Below are positions 1-8,612 of a DNA stretch of 8,612 bases, piece by piece. Made by a program: the position numbers and the translations under genes. Location of the stretch: IMG/VR virus record IMGVR_UViG_3300031418_000564, positions 1 through 8,612 of that record, one strand, 5' to 3'. The notes beneath the pieces were generated by a model. The model made no database searches and was not told the origin of the DNA. It saw nothing but the letters and a program-made list of their open reading frames with translations. This stretch comes from a virus. Position 1 is the stretch's first letter; each line of letters starts with the position of its first letter.

Positions 1-27
1 GGTTCGCATAATAACGTTATGCAAAAG
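1..27 (+). other. dif-like XerC/XerD recombination site A
   Basis: GGTTCGCATAA-TAACG-TTATGCAAAAG compared with E. coli dif GGTGCGCATAA-TGTATA-TTATGTTAAAT (recalled). The XerC arm matches 10/11 and the XerD arm 8/11. The spacer is only 5 nt. Confidence 0.6.
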
Positions 28-28
28 A

Positions 29-64
29 GCCGCCTGCGAGATTCTATTTTCGCAGGCGGCTTTT
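29..64 (+). terminator. Bidirectional rho-independent terminator (first copy)
   Basis: Perfect 11-bp GC-rich stem, 29-39 gccgcctgcga pairing with 50-60 tcgcaggcggc, with a 10-nt loop. TTTT follows at 61-64 and AAAAGA precedes at 23-28, which gives a T-run on the other strand. Confidence 0.75.
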
Positions 65-94
65 CTACATAACGTGTGGCACATTATGCGCACC
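62..94 (-). other. dif-like site B, inverted relative to site A, with a long spacer
   Basis: The minus strand reads GGTGCGCATAA-TGTGCCACACG-TTATGTAGAAA. The XerC arm is identical to E. coli dif (11/11). The first 3 nt of the spacer (TGT) equal the dif central region. The XerD-like arm matches 8/11 but sits 11 nt away. Confidence 0.6.
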
Positions 95-868: not shown

Positions 869-2176
869 TCAGAGCTGCCGGATAACATGAGCGGTCAGCA
901 AAACGTACATAGTCCGATCACTACTGCTATCGGAATGGCTGCGGAAAAGCCAACCGATTAAAGGAATTTTACTGAGAAATGGCACGGAGCGATCGCTATC
1001 TGTCTTGTTTGAGTCAATAAGGCCACCGAGCAATAACGTCTGGCCATCCTTGATTTGAACCGTAGTCTGGATCTGACGTTGATTGGTAATGATATCGGAT
1101 GCACTTTCATTGTTACTGATGGAATCTGCTCGCGTATCGATGGAAAGTACTAACTGACCACCGGACATAACAACGGGTGTGACTTTAAGAGAAACGCCCA
1201 CATCGTGGCGCTCGATTGTCTGGAACGGGTTATTAACGTTGGCTGACTCACCGGTGACACGGCCAGTGATAAACGGCACGTTCTGTCCGACCGATATGTA
1301 CCCAGACTGACCAGACTGTGTGAGTATTTGTGGCGTTGAAATAACCCTCGCATGGCTGTCAGAACGGACTGCCTGTAGTGATAATGCAAGAATATTGCCG
1401 TCAAAAATGCCAAAAGCGCCTCCTGATGTAGACAGAGCTGAGCCTAAGGAAGAAGTATTAAAGCCCCCTGCTACCTTATGACCAGAAGCTGAACCAGCGG
1501 CAAATGAGAGATCCAGACCGTCTGCAAGAGTAGTATCAAACATAAGAGACTGGATCAGCACTTGGTCACGGGCCACATCGACAGAATGAATAAAATCACC
1601 CAACGCCGGCATTAAGACGTCAGGAGCAGAAACAATGATTGAGTTATTGCCTGGGTTATCAACTGCATTCCCGGTTCCATTCGCCTGAAGAAATACGGTT
1701 ACCAGTTGAAGAACATCAGTTGATCTAACGCTGCTCAGACGGAAACTGCGGACGGATAAAGCGATCGGTGCTGGTAATGCTTCTTGCGTGACAGTAGCCG
1801 AATAATCAGCGTCATCAGATGGTGATGATTCTTCATAATAAACAGGCTCTTGTGATGCGAGTCGTGATGTTGGAAGAGAAACAACGAAAGGATCGCCATT
1901 CATCAGGATAAAGCCATTTGCGTTAAGTACTGACTTAAAAAATGTATCAATATTGGCTTGGTTAACATCAGCATTAAAGACAGTAATAAACCCTTTAACG
2001 TTTGGATTAACAATAACTGCCCTGCCCGTTTTCTGTGAATACCACTGAACGAAAGAGCGTACTGGTGCATTATTTAAATTCAAAGGTTCAGCCAACACAT
2101 TGAATGTAAAAGCCAATAGAAAAGGAATGAATAAAAATCTTATGTATAAATATGATTTATTATTTAAAGTGTTCAT
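869..2176 (-). CDS. gIV: Secretin pIV (virion export channel), 435 aa
   Basis: Long stretches align with M13 pIV as recalled: SVGQNVPFITGRVTGESANVNNPFQTIER, DGQTLLLGGL and the secretin C-motif VPFLSKIPLIGWLF. I place the start at ATG 2176, 1 nt after the gI stop (TAAAATG). This gives the signal peptide MNTLNNKSYLYIRFLFIPFLLAFTFNVLA/EP. The 25 extra codons in the ORF track overlap gI and are unlikely to be translated. Confidence 0.95.
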   Translation of the reverse strand: MNTLNNKSYLYIRFLFIPFLLAFTFNVLAEPLNLNNAPVRSFVQWYSQKTGRAVIVNPNVKGFITVFNADVNQANIDTFFKSVLNANGFILMNGDPFVVSLPTSRLASQEPVYYEESSPSDDADYSATVTQEALPAPIALSVRSFRLSSVRSTDVLQLVTVFLQANGTGNAVDNPGNNSIIVSAPDVLMPALGDFIHSVDVARDQVLIQSLMFDTTLADGLDLSFAAGSASGHKVAGGFNTSSLGSALSTSGGAFGIFDGNILALSLQAVRSDSHARVISTPQILTQSGQSGYISVGQNVPFITGRVTGESANVNNPFQTIERHDVGVSLKVTPVVMSGGQLVLSIDTRADSISNNESASDIITNQRQIQTTVQIKDGQTLLLGGLIDSNKTDSDRSVPFLSKIPLIGWLFRSHSDSSSDRTMYVLLTAHVIRQL

Positions 2177-2177
2177 T

Positions 2178-2552
2178 TTAACCTTCACAAGTGATTTTCT
2201 GTATATATTTGTCTTTTCGGATAGTAACGTGACAGGCATCTTTAATATCAATGCTATAACCGTCTTTAATGAAATCGAAAGAATAATATTGCGTTCCTTT
2301 GATATCTTTGAATATTACAGAGACATCATAGCCCATTTGAGAAAATGAACTAATAGATAATCTAGGTAAAAAGACGGTCGCTTGGTCTGTTTTATTAAAA
2401 CTCTCATTTTTTAATGTTTCACTCAACGCATTAATTTCAAGATCATTCTTTCCAGACTTGTATAAAATACCCATAGCGGCACCCAATGCAAGGAATGAAG
2501 CCATTATCCAGATGCGATTCATACGTTTAAAGTATATCTTAGTTATACGCAT
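2178..2552 (-). CDS. gXI: Possible pXI, an in-frame internal-start product of gI (124 aa)
   Basis: Internal Met241 (ATG 2552-2550) starts MRITKIYFKRMNRIW. This aligns with the M13 pXI start MKLTKIYLKKFSRVL, just before the TM helix. The call is by analogy only. Confidence 0.45.
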   Translation of the reverse strand: MRITKIYFKRMNRIWIMASFLALGAAMGILYKSGKNDLEINALSETLKNESFNKTDQATVFLPRLSISSFSQMGYDVSVIFKDIKGTQYYSFDFIKDGYSIDIKDACHVTIRKDKYIQKITCEG

Positions 2553-4892: not shown

Positions 4893-5141
4893 TTAGACTG
4901 CTTTAGAAGAAAACTTCTTAAACAAACGAATTGCCAGACCCGCACCTACAACAACAGTAACTACAGGCCACGTCTGCGCAATTAAATCCGTTGCCTGAGT
5001 TTTAAGGGAGTTCATGGCTTCTGTAGCATAATTGGTAGCCGTGTCTCCATCAGCGGCAAATGCGCCCGCAGAAACCAATAAAGATGCTGCACCCAGAGCA
5101 ATTTTATTTTTAGCATTTAAAATAGAAGAAAGAACACGCAT
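4893..5141 (-). CDS. gVIII: Major coat protein pVIII precursor, 82 aa (29-aa leader plus 53-aa mature)
   Basis: The mature part ADGDTATNYATEAMNSLKTQATDLIAQTWPVVTVVVGAGLAIRLFKKFSSKAV is very close to the IKe coat protein as I recall it (AEPNAATNYATEAMDSLKTQAIDLISQTWPVVTTVVVAGLVIRLFKKFSSKAV). It has an acidic N-terminus, a hydrophobic core and a basic C-terminus. Confidence 0.97.
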   Translation of the reverse strand: MRVLSSILNAKNKIALGAASLLVSAGAFAADGDTATNYATEAMNSLKTQATDLIAQTWPVVTVVVGAGLAIRLFKKFSSKAV

Positions 5142-5151
5142 TGTATTTACC

Positions 5152-5253
5152 TTATATCATACGTTCAGAAATTGACTTAAAGAAAGCAATTCCATAAAAA
5201 AGGGCAAAGCCCAAGAAATATGCCCCGAGGAATAAACCTACATAATTAATCAT
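5152..5253 (-). CDS. gIX: Minor capsid protein pIX analogue, 33 aa
   Basis: Not in the ORF track; hand-translated as MINYVGLFLGAYFLGFALFYGIAFFKSISERMI. It is a small hydrophobic protein. Its ATG overlaps the stop of the preceding small ORF (ATGA), as for gVII/gIX in Ff. It ends 8 nt (5142-5151) before the gVIII start. Confidence 0.6.
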   Translation of the reverse strand: MINYVGLFLGAYFLGFALFYGIAFFKSISERMI

Positions 5254-5339
5254 CGAAGCACTCCAGCAGTAACAGCACCAAGACCAAAAGATATAACAAG
5301 GCCAAGTGCTATTACGACATGAATTAATTCATCAGTCAT
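5250..5339 (-). CDS. gVII: Minor capsid protein pVII analogue, 29 aa
   Basis: Not in the ORF track; hand-translated as MTDELIHVVIALGLVISFGLGAVTAGVLR. It starts 4 nt after the gV stop. It is hydrophobic and ends like M13 pVII (...GIIAGGQR). Confidence 0.6.
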   Translation of the reverse strand: MTDELIHVVIALGLVISFGLGAVTAGVLR

Positions 5340-5343
5340 TAAC

Positions 5344-5613
5344 TTAGGCTTTAATTGATTCTAAAAGAATACGTCCAACTGAGAGATTTCCGTAGCGATT
5401 AACCTCAAAAGAACTAAGATGAAGTCGATATTTCCCTACACTATAAGGCGGTTGACCATCTTGAAGGTTTAGCTTGAACAACTGGGGATAAGCACCGCCA
5501 AGATAGGCATAAGCACTCTGTTCACGGATGGTATAGGGCTTCCCTGTGCGTTGCGATACGCCGGATCTCTCTTCGAAGTTGACCTGAGACTCATGAATTT
5601 CTATTGTGATCAT
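5344..5613 (-). CDS. gV: ssDNA-binding protein pV, 89 aa
   Basis: Aligns along its whole length with M13 gVp as recalled. Shared motifs: RSGVS, GKPY, EQ, YP, GQP.Y..G.Y..HLSSF.V...G.L. Confidence 0.95.
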   Translation of the reverse strand: MITIEIHESQVNFEERSGVSQRTGKPYTIREQSAYAYLGGAYPQLFKLNLQDGQPPYSVGKYRLHLSSFEVNRYGNLSVGRILLESIKA

Positions 5614-5626
5614 AATTATTACCTAA

Positions 5627-5926
5627 TTAAGCGACTTTTAAATGAGATGGTTTTATATACCATGTTGGGATAACGCAATCTTTTACCTTTATCTCTCTAA
5701 TATCTTTGACAATAACAGGTGAGAACTTAGAAACATTACAGCGCTGAGCAATGTCGATACCTATCTTCCGTAACCTAGCGCGATGCACCCTGACCTGATT
5801 TTTTGAAAGGTCAAAGTTATGGCCATGAAACCACTGAATCGCGTACATGGCTGTGGTATTGGCCGCACGAGTGGTTTCGACAATACTACGAGATAACAAA
5901 TGTTCGCTGATAGTTTCAAAGTCCAT
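5627..5926 (-). CDS. gX: Possible pX, an in-frame internal-start product of gII (99 aa)
   Basis: Internal Met273 (ATG 5926-5924) is preceded by GGTGA 5 nt upstream. The size and position match Ff pX (C-terminal ~110 aa of pII). The call is by analogy only. Confidence 0.4.
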   Translation of the reverse strand: MDFETISEHLLSRSIVETTRAANTTAMYAIQWFHGHNFDLSKNQVRVHRARLRKIGIDIAQRCNVSKFSPVIVKDIREIKVKDCVIPTWYIKPSHLKVA

Positions 5927-6742
5927 AGCATTCACCGATAGTTTTTCATCAAGCTCTAAAAAAGAATTATGTAATTCATTGAGTACTGAGTAATCTGAAA
6001 GGCCCCAAAATAATAGATTCTGTTTCTGCAAATATCGTGATTTTAGTTTTTGTTCAAAACGGACTATGCCATTTTCGCAGCAATGAGTAATGATGTTATT
6101 AACATAAATAAACTCTTTTGATTCTGTACCAAATTTGTTCTTTATTTTCTGCAATGAGTGAAGCTCAATTTCATTCGCTTTGTTATAAACCGTTGGATAA
6201 ATCAGACTTACATTGCCCTTTTTTGATAACCAGTCTACCGATTTACCGTTGCTGTGTAATCGTGGGACGCTATTCCTATAAGGCTGAGTTGATAACCCTG
6301 AGATATATTCATCTTCATTGCCCTTCCCTACGGACTTGTTCGAGGTTATATGCAATTCACGGATATAAGCACCATCAGATAACAACGTTGCTTTTTCGCC
6401 TTCCTTGGCTTGGCTGAAAAATATCTTTGTGCATTTTGTAAATTGTGGAAGCCCAAGTTCAGACAATATCTGATTAAAAACGGCGACACATGAATCTACG
6501 GTAGGAAGCCCAAAAAGATTGTCTAACCTTCCCCACTTTGAGGGATTACCTGACATTTTTAACGACGACCCACGGATCGAAATTGACACTACATCGCAAA
6601 AGGATCCTTTATGTTGAAATGTTGGCTGGGAGAGTGCACTCGCCTCTCCACTTTCAAGGTGAATACGTTGATAGGCAACATCGCTCAGTATGGGTAACTG
6701 ATAGCCAAAATCTTGTTCAATCGCCAACCAGTCAAAAAACAC
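5627..6742 (-). CDS. gII: Replication initiation (nicking-closing) protein pII, 371 aa, GTG start
   Basis: GIVRFEQKLKSRYLQ compares with M13 pII GLVRFEARIKTRYLK, and the C-terminus PTWYIKPSHLKVA with PDWYNEPVLKIA. The gene sits directly upstream of gV. An AAGGTG Shine-Dalgarno lies 8 nt before the GTG. The N-terminal third is more divergent. Confidence 0.85.
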   Translation of the reverse strand: MFFDWLAIEQDFGYQLPILSDVAYQRIHLESGEASALSQPTFQHKGSFCDVVSISIRGSSLKMSGNPSKWGRLDNLFGLPTVDSCVAVFNQILSELGLPQFTKCTKIFFSQAKEGEKATLLSDGAYIRELHITSNKSVGKGNEDEYISGLSTQPYRNSVPRLHSNGKSVDWLSKKGNVSLIYPTVYNKANEIELHSLQKIKNKFGTESKEFIYVNNIITHCCENGIVRFEQKLKSRYLQKQNLLFWGLSDYSVLNELHNSFLELDEKLSVNAMDFETISEHLLSRSIVETTRAANTTAMYAIQWFHGHNFDLSKNQVRVHRARLRKIGIDIAQRCNVSKFSPVIVKDIREIKVKDCVIPTWYIKPSHLKVA

Positions 6743-6762
6743 GTGAATGCACCTTACTTCAA

Positions 6763-6791
6763 ATCGTAGGTAAACCCTTCTCGCATGACAA
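6763..6791 (-). promoter_or_regulatory. Candidate sigma70 promoter for gII
   Basis: The minus strand reads TTGTCA (6791-6786), a 17-nt spacer, then TACGAT (6768-6763), just upstream of the gII Shine-Dalgarno and GTG. Confidence 0.4.
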
Positions 6792-6812
6792 AACCGTAAT
6801 ACATGACGAGGG

Positions 6813-6901
6813 TGAACTCATGAGCACATTAGCTCAACAGAAAAAATAATACACTCATGAACACATGAGTTCAAGAGGTTTGGCGTTAATGAACTCATGA
6901 G
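6813..6901. promoter_or_regulatory. Operator array in the divergent gII/regulator control region
   Basis: The identical 12-mer TGAACTCATGAG occurs at 6813-6824 and 6890-6901. A palindrome ACTCATG-AACA-CATGAGT lies at 6853-6870, and its right half extends to TGAACTCATG on the minus strand (6864-6873). This gives four ACTCATG copies in total. A -10-like TATACT lies at 6906-6911, and GGAG (6927-6930) lies 7 nt before ATG 6938. Confidence 0.55.
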
Positions 6902-6937
6902 GATGTATACTCTGGAAAAATATTCTGGAGTATCAAA

Positions 6938-7213
6938 ATGGCTAAACGTGCTACGTACAATGTCACCGAAGAGCGAAAATTGAAGCTTGAGCGGCTGGCT
7001 ATAGATGCAAGTGTCAAACTTGGGAAAACAGTAACGTGGACTGAATTGATGGGTCTGCTAATCGATGGCTATGCGAAAGACGCCGCTGATGACTTGATAG
7101 CTCAAGATTTAAGAGAGTTTGAGAAAGAGGTAATACTAGAAATGGAAGATGCTGAAATGGTCGGTGGTCGGGGGCCAGTAAGGGCTAAAAAAAATCAACC
7201 TAAAGTAAAATAG
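6938..7213 (+). CDS. Ribbon-helix-helix (CopG/Arc/MetJ-like) DNA-binding protein, 91 aa; putative phage repressor or regulator
   Basis: The N-terminus KRATYNVTEERKLKLERLAIDASVKLGKTVTWTELMGLLIDGYAKD fits a beta-strand/helix/G-x-T turn/helix pattern, comparable to CopG KKRLTITLSESVLENLEKMAREMGLSKSAMISVALENYKK (recalled). It has a good Shine-Dalgarno, is divergent from gII and lies next to repeated operators. Classical Ff/IKe phages have no counterpart. Confidence 0.6.
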   Translation: MAKRATYNVTEERKLKLERLAIDASVKLGKTVTWTELMGLLIDGYAKDAADDLIAQDLREFEKEVILEMEDAEMVGGRGPVRAKKNQPKVK

Positions 7214-7268
7214 TACGGGAAACCGTACTAAAGTTCGGGTGTCACAGAACCCCGAACCGCTTCGCGGT
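7211..7268. other. Cluster of three GC-rich stem-loops between the regulator and the cargo ORF
   Basis: Stem-loop 1: tagtacgg-gaaa-ccgtacta (7211-7230, 8-bp stem, GAAA loop, overlaps the TAG stop). Stem-loop 2: gttcggg-N11-cccgaac (7233-7257). Stem-loop 3: accgc-ttc-gcggt (7256-7268). None is followed by a T-run, so they are not classical terminators. Confidence 0.35.
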
Positions 7269-7341: not shown

Positions 7342-8460
7342 TTGATAAAGATGAATGCACTCTTAGAGAAAATTGCAGGTGCAATAGCAACCTTTACAGT
7401 CGCTCTTATTTTGAATAAATTTTTTTCTACCTTTCGTGTAAGACAGCTTTATTTAGCATATGAAAACGCCCTTGAGTATACAACTCAAAGCAAATCTGGG
7501 CACACAGTGATGCTCACCATATCTAATAAAGGGAAAGAGAAAGAGAAAAATGTAAATGTGATAATACCTAGGAGTAAAAAAATATCAATTTTATCGTCAA
7601 GCTGTCCTGATATAGATTGTGATAATAATCAATTTAAGATTGAGAGAATTCTTTCAGGTGAATCCATCACGCTAGTTCTGTTGATTAAAGATGGTGAGAA
7701 AATATCAAAATCAAATTTACCAATAATTAAATCAGATGACGTGAATGGCAAGTGTTATAGCAGTGTAAAAAATATGCCACCAAGTCTTGGGCCTGCTATT
7801 TTTAGTTTGTCTTTGTTTTTTGCAGTTATCGCACTATTAGGTGTGAGTGCATATAAAGGATATGACCCATTTGAGGTTGCGTACTCTCAATACTATAAAT
7901 TGAGATTTAGTACATTTTATTCTCGTGGTTTCGATAATAATACATTTGATGAAAATTCCCTTATTAAACAATATGATACATCTAAAAACGAATTCCCAAT
8001 AGATCTTAAGAGTATCGAGATAATAAGTAATAATATTGAATATACATTTTTAGTAAATAATAGTACGAGTCAAAACATCAGTGTTGGCTTGAGTTTTACT
8101 GTCAAGAATAGCAGAGCATACTATGATGAGTTGGGCGAATCCCTTAATATAAGGGAAGATAAGGTGAGACGGGCTAAACTAACCGAGTTAAGGAAAAAAT
8201 ACAATATCCTAGAAAACGAATACGGATATACATATTCAGTTGATCAGTGGGTTGATAAAGGGCAGGCAAAAGAAATAAAAATAATTAGGCCGATTGTTAA
8301 AGGGCTAGATTACCAAAGCCTTGGGGTGAATATTAGAATGAGAAATGATTCTAATAACAAAGATTTCTATGGTGATTATACTTTCAAACCTGAACTCTCT
8401 GCTCTTGCAAAAAACAAATTAGATCCGATTCTCAGGTTTAACCAATATCCATTAAAATGA
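7342..8460 (+). CDS. Hypothetical membrane protein with two predicted TM helices, 372 aa (369 aa from ATG 7351); AT-rich accessory cargo gene
   Basis: Long uninterrupted ORF on the strand opposite all phage genes. It is visibly more AT-rich than the phage core. Hydrophobic helices lie at about residues 11-27 (IAGAIATFTVALILNKF) and 149-169 (LGPAIFSLSLFFAVIALLGVS). Each is followed by a strand-rich soluble segment. A charged helical stretch follows (EDKVRRAKLTELRKKYNILENE). I recognise no motif. The ORF track starts at TTG 7342, but ATG 7351 is the more likely start. A weak candidate promoter is TTCCTA-16-AATAAT (7290-7317). The bidirectional terminator lies 56 bp downstream. Confidence 0.75.
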   Translation: MIKMNALLEKIAGAIATFTVALILNKFFSTFRVRQLYLAYENALEYTTQSKSGHTVMLTISNKGKEKEKNVNVIIPRSKKISILSSSCPDIDCDNNQFKIERILSGESITLVLLIKDGEKISKSNLPIIKSDDVNGKCYSSVKNMPPSLGPAIFSLSLFFAVIALLGVSAYKGYDPFEVAYSQYYKLRFSTFYSRGFDNNTFDENSLIKQYDTSKNEFPIDLKSIEIISNNIEYTFLVNNSTSQNISVGLSFTVKNSRAYYDELGESLNIREDKVRRAKLTELRKKYNILENEYGYTYSVDQWVDKGQAKEIKIIRPIVKGLDYQSLGVNIRMRNDSNNKDFYGDYTFKPELSALAKNKLDPILRFNQYPLK

Positions 8461-8487: not shown

Positions 8488-8514
8488 GGTTCGCATAATA
8501 ACGTTATGCAAAAG
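8488..8514 (+). other. dif-like site A, second copy
   Basis: Identical to 1-27. It lies 28 bp after the stop of the cargo ORF. Confidence 0.6.
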
Positions 8515-8515
8515 A

Positions 8516-8551
8516 GCCGCCTGCGAGATTCTATTTTCGCAGGCGGCTTTT
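8516..8551 (+). terminator. Bidirectional rho-independent terminator (second copy), positioned to terminate the cargo ORF
   Basis: Identical to 29-64: 11-bp GC stem plus TTTT. Confidence 0.75.
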
Positions 8552-8581
8552 CTACATAACGTGTGGCACATTATGCGCACC
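8549..8581 (-). other. dif-like site B, second copy
   Basis: Identical to 62-94. Confidence 0.6.
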
Positions 8582-8612
8582 TAGATAAGGATACGTGGAA
8601 TCTGGGGTTTTG

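What the first reader, a model, noticed from the sequence alone, without database searches (positions are those of the whole stretch)
7342..8460. AT-rich two-TM 372-aa cargo protein of unknown family, encoded antisense to the virion strand: candidate exclusion, defence or virulence moron
Every other gene has a clear Ff/IKe counterpart. This ORF has none, and it is the largest single addition to the backbone. It lies on the strand complementary to the packaged ssDNA, so it can only be expressed from the double-stranded replicative form or the prophage. It is markedly more AT-rich than the phage core, which suggests separate acquisition. It sits just downstream of an RHH regulator and is closed off by its own strong terminator. 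The architecture is TM helix, ~115-aa strand-rich domain, TM helix, then a ~200-aa domain with a charged helix. Both soluble parts carry a similar strand motif (TVMLTISNKG near residue 55, YTFLVNNSTS near residue 234), which hints at an internal duplication. Lysogeny-expressed membrane proteins on prophages typically mediate superinfection exclusion, abortive infection or defence, or host-interaction phenotypes. An RHH gene followed by a membrane effector also resembles a toxin-antitoxin or Abi-like pair. I cannot assign a function from sequence.
Basis: partly seen in the sequence, partly recalled or inferred. Interest (0 to 1): 0.8.

Follow-up and report, generated by a model that had tools for sequence, protein, structure and literature searches.

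The report
Swappable membrane cargo gene, filamentous prophage
This is a real, conserved gene for a two-pass inner-membrane protein of untested function that filamentous and tailed prophages carry as interchangeable cargo beside their integration site, most plausibly to keep other phages out.

Summary
The ORF is real. The true start is probably ATG 7351, giving 369 aa. The window is one circular unit (8487 nt) of an If1-like filamentous phage that integrates at dif. The gene lies on the strand opposite all phage core genes. It sits between a conserved hairpin just 3' of the small regulator gene and the dif-like attachment hairpin. It has no Pfam, NCBIfam or PADLOC match. It does belong to a family of about 180 clusters (PHROG 17621, function unknown), which includes the terminal accessory ORF of prophage CUS-1 in E. 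coli UTI89. A confident model shows TM helix, beta-sandwich, TM helix, second beta-sandwich with a helical hairpin. Charge bias places the conserved first domain in the cytoplasm and the variable second domain in the periplasm. In E. coli prophages that are 99.6-99.7% identical, three alleles (28-63% identical to this protein) replace one another exactly between the two hairpins. Other members sit at the edges of tailed prophages, one between two PADLOC candidate defence systems. My best reading is a stand-alone, lysogeny-expressed phage-exclusion or defence protein (confidence about 0.45). The toxin-antitoxin pairing with the RHH gene, the internal duplication and the puvA link are not supported.

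The parts
7351..8460 (+). CDS of the 369-aa cargo protein. The TTG at 7342 would add 3 codons and is probably not used.
   Evidence: homologues all start at the equivalent ATG; ATGAATGCAC is conserved; a weak GGA(T) motif lies 10-13 nt upstream
7354..7431 (+). TM helix 1 (residues 2-27). It is followed by the family motif S-x-F-R-x-R-Q-L-Y-L. Predicted orientation is N-terminus out.
   Evidence: Across 103 family representatives, K+R averages 0.19 before TM1 and 3.27 in the 15 residues after it
7441..7770 (+). Domain 1 (residues about 31-140). A beta-sandwich and the most conserved part of the protein. Motifs: NKGK(D/E)KE, IDRxL, KS(E/D)DxNGK, VPPSxGP. Predicted cytoplasmic.
   Evidence: pLDDT about 90; 38% mean pairwise identity versus 20% for domain 2
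7789..7854 (+). TM helix 2 (residues 147-168)
7855..8436 (+). Juxtamembrane helices carrying the G(F/W)...S-L...Y...EFP motif (169-216). Then domain 2, a beta-sandwich (217-345) with an inserted charged helical hairpin (254-283), and a C-terminal helix (351-362). This is the variable part. Predicted periplasmic.
   Evidence: In P0148 this module is duplicated in tandem; P0083, P0070 and P0061 add further C-terminal modules
7230..7267 (+). Conserved 38-nt double-hairpin element, AAAGTTCGGGTGTCACAGAACCCCGAACCGCTTCGCGG. It marks the 5' boundary of the cargo slot. It belongs to the If1-type backbone, not to the gene family.
8488..8581 (.). The 3' boundary of the slot: a 94-nt hairpin with two inverted dif-like sites (8488-8514 on +, 8554-8581 on -). 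Its tip (about 8512-8553) is a bidirectional intrinsic terminator. It acts as the attachment site for XerCD-type integration at dif.
   Evidence: Integrated copies L025 and L026 have a perfect dif exactly 8487 nt from the hybrid site
6938..7213 (+). The 91-aa upstream gene (RHH-like by sequence pattern only; phrog_2503, function unknown). It is a backbone regulator candidate, not a partner of the cargo gene.
   Evidence: (45% identical to an unannotated If1 ORF)

Best explanation
The gene encodes a stand-alone, bitopic-hairpin inner-membrane protein. It can only be made from double-stranded phage DNA (replicative form or dif-integrated prophage). It most likely protects the lysogen by excluding or aborting infection by other phages.

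Proposed mechanism (inferred): the short acidic N-terminus and the variable C-terminal beta-sandwich face the periplasm. There the variable domain recognises a component of an incoming phage or of the entry route. The conserved beta-sandwich between the two TM helices sits on the cytoplasmic face and provides the common effector or anchoring function. That function could be blocking genome entry, or oligomerising the TM hairpins to collapse the membrane potential. Alleles with different periplasmic domains are exchanged as cassettes between the regulator-proximal hairpin and the dif-like attachment hairpin.

Shown here: gene reality, family, architecture, cargo status, cassette replacement, genomic associations. 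Inferred: topology, expression state, any anti-phage activity, and the Sie-versus-Abi mode.
For: (1) It is cargo, not backbone. It is absent from If1, which has the same regulator and hairpin. GC is 32.6% versus 41.5%.
(2) In E. coli dif prophages, backbone identity is 99.6-99.7% up to the last base of the 38-nt element and resumes at the dif hairpin. The cassette between holds family alleles that are 63%, 28% and 32% identical to this protein and do not align with one another at the DNA level. This pattern is typical of specificity-bearing immunity genes.
(3) The family occurs on unrelated mobile elements at classic moron or hotspot positions. In a P2-like contig it lies after gpU/gpD and Dam, between PADLOC candidates PDC-M38A/B and PDC-S52. 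In a tailed prophage it lies between the integrase and a host gene. In Pseudomonas farsensis it lies directly after a spanin/endolysin cassette. It also occurs in Pf-like Pseudomonas inoviruses and in IncF plasmids beside TA modules.
(4) There is no conserved neighbour, so it is a single-gene module.
(5) Architecture: two TM helices, a conserved inner domain and a variable outer domain. Relatives duplicate the outer domain or append further modules to it.
(6) No enzymatic or known-function domain is found by Pfam, NCBIfam, PDB sequence search or Foldseek. Only generic beta-sandwich hits appear.
Against: There is no homology to any of the 5027 PADLOC models or to any PHROG with an annotated function (only function-unknown PHROGs matched). 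The defence link rests on one clear defence-island context plus generic moron positions. Several non-inovirus copies (IS-flanked island, Serratia, IncF plasmid) still carry the If1-type hairpin. They may be inovirus remnants rather than independent acquisitions. No promoter was identified upstream, so lysogenic expression is assumed. Topology rests on the positive-inside rule only. CUS-1 and YpfPhi have been linked to host fitness in animals, which fits a non-defence role equally well (PMC4266046).
Confidence: 0.45

Rival explanations
1. It is a host-fitness or envelope factor. In this reading the membrane protein changes envelope physiology (stress tolerance, colonisation, virulence) of the lysogen and has no effect on phages.
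For: The P0004-type allele (61% identical to this protein) is the terminal accessory ORF of CUS-1 in ExPEC O18:K1:H7 strains UTI89, NU14 and RS218. Its 90% cluster is seen on 959 contigs, including Salmonella Typhi. CUS-1 and YpfPhi give modest in vivo fitness advantages (PMC4266046). Accessory slots next to dif carry the toxin genes in CTXphi (PMC4266046).
Against: The published CUS-1 phenotype maps to puvA (the pIII-like gene), not to this ORF (PMC4266046). The family is also found in environmental Pseudomonas, Aquitalea, Pantoea and Thiopseudomonas, and in tailed prophages. The extreme allelic divergence in near-identical prophages is not expected for a housekeeping-like envelope function. 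The protein is predicted to sit in the inner membrane, not at the surface.
Confidence: 0.15
2. It is an addiction or toxin module. Here the membrane protein is a toxin that stabilises the episome or prophage, neutralised by the upstream RHH-like protein.
For: A small DNA-binding-type gene lies directly upstream on the same strand. Two-TM proteins can depolarise membranes. Neighbouring TA modules occur on the IncF plasmids and in Serratia.
Against: The RHH-like gene occurs in If1 without the ORF. Upstream genes of family members in 10 other contexts are unrelated to it and mostly to each other. The two genes are separated by 137 nt containing two hairpins. At 369 aa with two folded domains it is unlike known small membrane toxins. 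Frameshifted copies exist with intact neighbours.
Confidence: 0.07
3. It has a phage life-cycle function specific to integrating inoviruses, for example assisting XerCD integration or excision, replicative-form maintenance, or assembly-site organisation.
For: It is always adjacent to the attachment site in dif-integrating inoviruses. It is membrane-located, like the assembly machinery.
Against: It is present in tailed prophages that do not use XerCD or filamentous assembly. It is replaced by an unrelated 88-aa ORF in a closely related phage and absent from If1. Pseudogenised copies occur in an otherwise intact CUS-1-like 9.5-kb replicon.
Confidence: 0.08

Closest known systems
Terminal accessory ORF of prophage CUS-1 (UTI89_RS08395 / WP_001555908.1; probably one of the two ORFs, 'orf1' and 'orf1a', that the review PMC4266046 places in the attL-adjacent segment of CUS-1)
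   Same: It is 369 aa and lies in a 90%-identity cluster whose representative, P0004, is 61% identical to this protein over the full length. It has the same orientation (opposite to the core genes) and the same position, as the last gene before the dif-side junction next to hipA.
   Different: CUS-1 has a different backbone: an HTH repressor of 148 aa instead of the RHH-like gene, an extra 140-aa multi-TM ORF between repressor and cargo, and no 38-nt element. No function has been reported. My equation with 'orf1' or 'orf1a' is an inference; the 2002 paper could not be read.
Prophage superinfection-exclusion membrane proteins (P22 SieA, T4 Imm, HK97 gp15). Comparison from general knowledge.
   Same: They are prophage-encoded inner-membrane proteins, expressed as single genes, located at moron sites, and highly variable between related phages.
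   Different: There is no sequence similarity: the only PHROG matches are to families of unknown function. This protein is much larger, with two folded beta-sandwich domains on opposite membrane faces. Activity is untested.
PADLOC/DefenseFinder-type single-gene candidate defence systems (e.g. PDC-S52, the neighbour in L014)
   Same: It is embedded between such candidates in a P2-like contig, and it is a single gene without a partner.
   Different: No PADLOC model matches this protein or 78 family members, apart from one chance-level hit.
Variable accessory slots of dif-integrating enterobacterial inoviruses (YpfPhi YPO2271/2272, UPphi accessory ORFs, ctxAB in CTXphi)
   Same: These are cargo positions next to the XerCD attachment site, with content that differs between otherwise near-identical phages (PMC4266046, PMC7307601).
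   Different: Here the slot boundaries are defined to the base, and the slot is repeatedly filled by divergent alleles of one protein family rather than by unrelated genes.
CARDB/DUF11-type and CBM2-type beta-sandwich domains
   Same: The fold class of both soluble domains matches. Foldseek gives TM about 0.5-0.6 on about 110 residues to CBM2 domains. There are weak DUF11 hits for the window protein (E 0.12) and for 4 of 78 members.
   Different: All hits are below Pfam thresholds. There is no carbohydrate-binding or adhesion context. Domain 1 is predicted to be cytoplasmic.

Membership tests
PHROG 17621 (phage protein family, function unknown) | Full-length match to the family HMM | tested here: met
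   E 4.3e-135; residues 4-361 match profile positions 1-361 of 363
CUS-1-type terminal accessory ORF family (this family; 182 clusters at 50% identity) | TM1 + FRxRQLYL, NKGK(D/E)KE, KS(E/D)DxNGK, VPPSxGP + TM2, and G(F/W)...EFP motifs in order | tested here: met
   Alignments A1, A3 and A4. Invariant across 78 sequences: N59, E65, S128, G133, N237
Known or candidate anti-phage defence proteins (PADLOC-DB v2) | Match to any of 5027 models | tested here: not met
   0 hits for the protein. 1 chance-level hit among 78 members
Annotated superinfection-exclusion families in PHROGs | HMM match to a PHROG annotated as superinfection exclusion | tested here: not met
   Only phrog_17621 plus four weak hits, all of unknown function
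Superinfection exclusion / abortive infection (functional class) | Reduces productive infection by other phages when expressed from the prophage | not testable with these tools
   Needs plaque and survival assays
Type II toxin-antitoxin pair (RHH antitoxin + toxin) | A conserved, co-inherited gene pair | tested here: not met
   The RHH-like gene is present in If1 without the ORF. Upstream neighbours in other contexts are non-homologous
Inovirus core (morphogenesis or replication) proteins | A homologue in Ff/IKe/If1-type genomes | tested here: not met
   tblastn against 50,697 phage records gave no match. All core genes are accounted for elsewhere in the window
Pfam DUF11 / CARDB-like domain | Score above the gathering threshold (24.6 bits) | tested here: not met
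   13.2 bits, E 0.12. 4 of 78 members reach E <= 0.01
Pfam DUF3592 (UniRef's name for the Pseudomonas peli member) | Pfam HMM match | tested here: not met
   Not among the families hit by any of 78 members at E <= 0.01. The name is seen only
Internally duplicated two-domain protein | Detectable profile-profile similarity between domain 1 and domain 2 | tested here: not met
   hhalign probability 0.7% (local) and 0.1% (global) on 30-sequence profiles

The most novel reading that the evidence does not exclude
This is the founding member of an undescribed single-protein anti-phage exclusion or defence family. The family has a conserved cytoplasmic beta-sandwich clamped between two TM helices and a hypervariable, modular periplasmic sensor. 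It is carried mainly by filamentous prophages, including CUS-1 of ExPEC and related phages in Salmonella. Alleles are exchanged as a cassette between a backbone hairpin and the XerCD attachment hairpin. If so, chronic non-lytic inoviruses would act as vehicles of transferable phage immunity with allele-specific target ranges.
Probability: 0.35. Interest if true: 0.7.

Novelty: new variant of a known kind. Interest (0 to 1): 0.5.

Why it matters
Filamentous prophages at dif are common in pathogenic Enterobacteriaceae (ExPEC CUS-1, Y. pestis YpfPhi, Salmonella). For two decades their terminal accessory ORFs have been listed as having 'no predictable function'. This analysis does three things. 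It ties one of those ORFs to a sizeable family. It gives the family a confident architecture and a topology prediction. It shows that divergent alleles replace each other at base-precise boundaries in otherwise identical prophages, and that relatives sit in tailed-phage hotspots beside candidate defence systems. Together these results turn an orphan ORF into a directly testable candidate for a new membrane-based phage-exclusion family, with natural allele sets ready for specificity-swap experiments. If the result is negative, the same allele series would point to a host-interaction role relevant to ExPEC and Salmonella biology.

Tried and rejected
(1) Pfam, NCBIfam and PADLOC scans of the protein and of 78 relatives gave nothing above threshold.
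(2) Foldseek of two models (pLDDT 72 and 86) against PDB and BFVD gave only generic beta-sandwich hits. The top whole-chain hit, AmoB, has TM 0.17 and was rejected as meaningless.
(3) A profile search of PDB sequences gave only E about 0.04 to IsdB NEAT domains, rejected as chance.
(4) Internal duplication was rejected by hhalign.
(5) The RHH gene as a partner was rejected.
(6) puvA as a comparator was rejected: it is the pIII-like gene.
(7) I asked whether the 38-nt element is the end of ISKpn21. An intact ISKpn21 copy lacks it, so this was rejected. Rfam gave no family for it.
(8) I asked whether the element travels with the gene family. It does so only on If1-type backbones and their remnants, not in CUS-1, Pseudomonas or tailed-phage contexts.
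(9) tblastn of a 300-aa subgroup member (P0052) against the phage and plasmid collections found nothing.
(10) The search for related loci with broad alignments failed for lack of a conserved 7-10-column stretch. The first genome scan found nothing.
(11) A promoter search upstream of the ORF found no consensus site and no conserved hexamers.
(12) A literature search for UTI89 locus tags and accessions found no paper. Gonzalez et al. 2002 is not held.

Full report
**What the window is**

The 8612-nt window is one unit of a circular filamentous-phage genome plus a 125-nt overlap: positions 1-125 equal 8488-8612 exactly, so the unit is 8487 nt. The - strand carries pII (5627-6742), pV, pVIII, pIII, pVI, pI (Zot) and pIV (secretin). 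The closest sequenced phage is If1: pII is 70% identical, pI 53% and pIV 49%.

The same phage occurs integrated in two metagenome contigs. There a perfect E. coli-type dif (GGTGCGCATAATGTATATTATGTTAAAT) lies exactly 8487 nt from the hybrid site that follows the target gene. So this is a dif-integrating (XerCD-type) inovirus, like CUS-1 and YpfPhi. The target gene is the last gene before the attachment site.

**The observation**

The ORF at 7342-8460 exists. Every homologue begins at the equivalent of ATG 7351 (MNALL...). One homologue has an in-frame stop just upstream of that ATG. I therefore take 7351-8460 (369 aa) as the CDS.

At 32.6% GC, an open frame of this length has a chance of about 1e-13 (my arithmetic). 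It is also conserved full-length across 182 clusters at 50% identity. It is a real gene.

- It is the most AT-rich gene: 32.6% versus 41.5% for the rest.
- It lies opposite all core genes.
- It follows a 91-aa gene (6938-7213).
- It is followed 28 nt later by a 94-nt hairpin (dG -48.8 kcal/mol, z = -7.3). The tip of that hairpin is a GC-rich stem with flanking A and T runs, a bidirectional terminator. The arms are two inverted dif-like sites.

**What the protein looks like**

With a 30-sequence alignment, AlphaFold2 gives mean pLDDT 86.3. The model shows:

- helix 2-27;
- a beta-sandwich at 33-136;
- helix 147-168;
- two short helices at 173-191;
- a second beta-sandwich at 217-345, interrupted by a charged helical hairpin at 254-283;
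- a C-terminal helix.

Hydropathy finds the same two TM segments.

Charge bias across 103 family representatives is strong. The N-terminal tail carries 0.19 K+R on average. The 15 residues after TM1 carry 3.27. The 15 before TM2 carry 2.37, and the 15 after TM2 carry 1.56. By the positive-inside rule, the N-terminus and domain 2 are periplasmic and domain 1 is cytoplasmic. This is an inference, not a measurement.

Domain 1 is the conserved half: 38% mean pairwise identity versus 20% for domain 2. Its motifs are FRxRQLYL, NKGK(D/E)KE, IDRxL, KS(E/D)DxNGK and VPPSxGP. Domain 2 is variable and modular:

- a subgroup of about 310 aa has a shorter version;
- one relative has it duplicated in tandem;
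- three relatives append further C-terminal repeats.

Foldseek against PDB and BFVD returns only generic beta-sandwiches: CBM2, DUF11/CARDB-like and transglutaminase Ig domains. Pfam, NCBIfam, PADLOC and PDB sequence searches give nothing significant. Profile-profile comparison of the two domains is negative, with probability 0.7%. The suspected internal duplication is therefore not supported.

**It is cargo, with base-precise boundaries**

If1 encodes an unannotated homologue of the 91-aa gene (45% identity). Directly 3' of that gene it has the exact core of a 38-nt double-hairpin element (window 7230-7267). It has no counterpart of the ORF.

Three E. coli dif prophages provide the key comparison. 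Their backbones are 99.6-99.7% identical to each other up to the last base of that element. They align again from the dif-like hairpin onwards at 90-96%. The DNA between does not align. Yet each fills the gap with a member of this same protein family, 63%, 28% and 32% identical to the window protein.

A related phage in E. coli G5 (pII 83% identical) has an unrelated 88-aa ORF in the same slot. The slot between the hairpin and the attachment site is thus a cassette site. This family is its recurrent occupant, in highly divergent allelic forms.

**Where else the family lives**

*Inoviruses.* The P0004-type allele (61% identical to this protein) is the terminal ORF of CUS-1 in UTI89, NU14 and RS218, next to hipA. 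Its 90% cluster is seen on hundreds of contigs, including Salmonella Typhi. A Pf-like integrase-bearing inovirus of Pseudomonas peli also carries a member. A CUS-1-like 9.5-kb replicon carries a pseudogenised copy.

*Tailed phages.*
- In a P2-like contig the gene lies after the tape-measure, gpU, gpD and Dam genes, flanked by PADLOC candidates PDC-M38A/B (E 1e-260 and 8e-79) and PDC-S52 (E 1e-80).
- In a prophage it lies between the integrase and a host gene.
- In a Pseudomonas farsensis prophage or tailocin it lies immediately after the spanin/endolysin cassette.
- In P. capsici it lies between tgt and a Bro-N gene.

*Other contexts.* It occurs on Enterobacter IncF plasmids beside TA modules and in IS-flanked islands. 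Some of these, together with the Serratia copy, retain the If1-type hairpin. They may be inovirus remnants rather than independent acquisitions.

Upstream neighbours are unrelated across contexts, so there is no conserved partner gene.

**Interpretation**

The following features together are the signature of prophage immunity or exclusion genes:

- a single-gene membrane protein;
- location at moron or hotspot positions of unrelated mobile elements;
- extreme allelic divergence inside near-identical prophages;
- a conserved inner domain and a variable, modular outer domain;
- one unambiguous location between candidate defence systems.

I therefore favour a lysogeny-expressed phage-exclusion or defence protein (confidence about 0.45). 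In this model the periplasmic domain is the specificity determinant. The conserved cytoplasmic domain plus TM hairpin is the common effector or anchor. Whether it blocks entry (Sie) or kills the infected cell (Abi) cannot be decided from sequence.

The rival readings are a host-fitness or envelope factor (0.15), a life-cycle function of integrating inoviruses (0.08), and a toxin controlled by the RHH-like gene (0.07). The remaining probability is an unknown other role. No activity has been tested anywhere. I found no literature on the UTI89 locus.

**Comparison with the known, and novelty**

The gene is not new as a sequence. It belongs to phrog_17621 and appears as 'hypothetical protein' in many genomes. 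Its slot corresponds to the 'variable accessory regions' already noted for CUS-1, YpfPhi and UPphi (PMC4266046, PMC7307601).

Four things are new here:
- the link of the CUS-1 terminal ORF to a broad family;
- the architecture and topology model;
- the base-precise cassette replacement;
- the association with tailed-phage hotspots.

The protein fails every membership test for known defence, Sie, TA or inovirus core families. So it would be a new family within a known kind of system: prophage-borne membrane exclusion or defence morons. I score interest at 0.5. It is a well-founded, readily testable candidate, but finding cargo of unknown function at this position in an inovirus is not in itself surprising.

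Noticed in passing
window 7230-7267 (also L012/If1 5061-5085, minus strand; L004 4001-4065): A 38-nt double-hairpin element, AAAGTTCGGGTGTCACAGAACCCCGAACCGCTTCGCGG. It is exact in If1 and in several E. coli dif prophages. About 88% identical copies occur in about 670 E. coli records (424 plasmid places), often beside ISNCY/ISKpn21 transposase remnants. An intact ISKpn21 lacks it, and Rfam has no match. It could be a terminator, an origin-type signal or a recombination boundary; this is unresolved.
   Followed up: partly
window 1-94 and 8488-8581: The attachment region is a 94-nt hairpin carrying two inverted dif-like sites: GGTTCGCATAATAACGTTATGCAAAAG on the + strand and GGTGCGCATAATGTGCCACACGTTATGT on the - strand. 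The terminator forms its tip. This is reminiscent of the folded single-stranded attP of CTXphi. Integrated copies sit at a perfect dif (L025, L026).
   Followed up: partly
L012 (If1, NC_001954) 5388-7086: If1's annotated 'ORF348, homologous to eryA' is an IS200/IS605-type TnpB, with a Y1 TnpA-like ORF on the other strand. I assigned both from the ORF translations alone; no family search was run. An RHH-like ORF (5119-5322, minus strand), homologous to the window's 91-aa gene, is unannotated inside If1's 'major intergenic region'.
   Followed up: partly
L005/L032 (E. coli G5, NZ_CP060065): A tandem duplicated inovirus prophage lies at dif, with an ISKpn21-family (ISNCY) element inserted immediately beyond the terminal dif-like site. 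From memory, this fits reports that IS1202-group elements target XerCD sites.
   Followed up: no
window 2069-2468: A second strongly AT-rich patch (26-30% GC) spans the pI C-terminus and pIV N-terminus overlap. It is lower in GC than the cargo gene itself, and may mark a recombination joint in the morphogenesis module.
   Followed up: no
L015 9529-10275, L023 11095-11850, L024 11086-11832: In Pseudomonas Pf-like contexts the family member is followed by a conserved 248-251-aa ORF (60% identical between two species) with no Pfam match. It may be a lineage-specific partner.
   Followed up: no
L034 (UTI89) 9063-9485; L033 7862-8284: CUS-1 has an extra 140-aa multi-TM ORF between its HTH repressor and the family member. 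This ORF is absent from the window phage.
   Followed up: no
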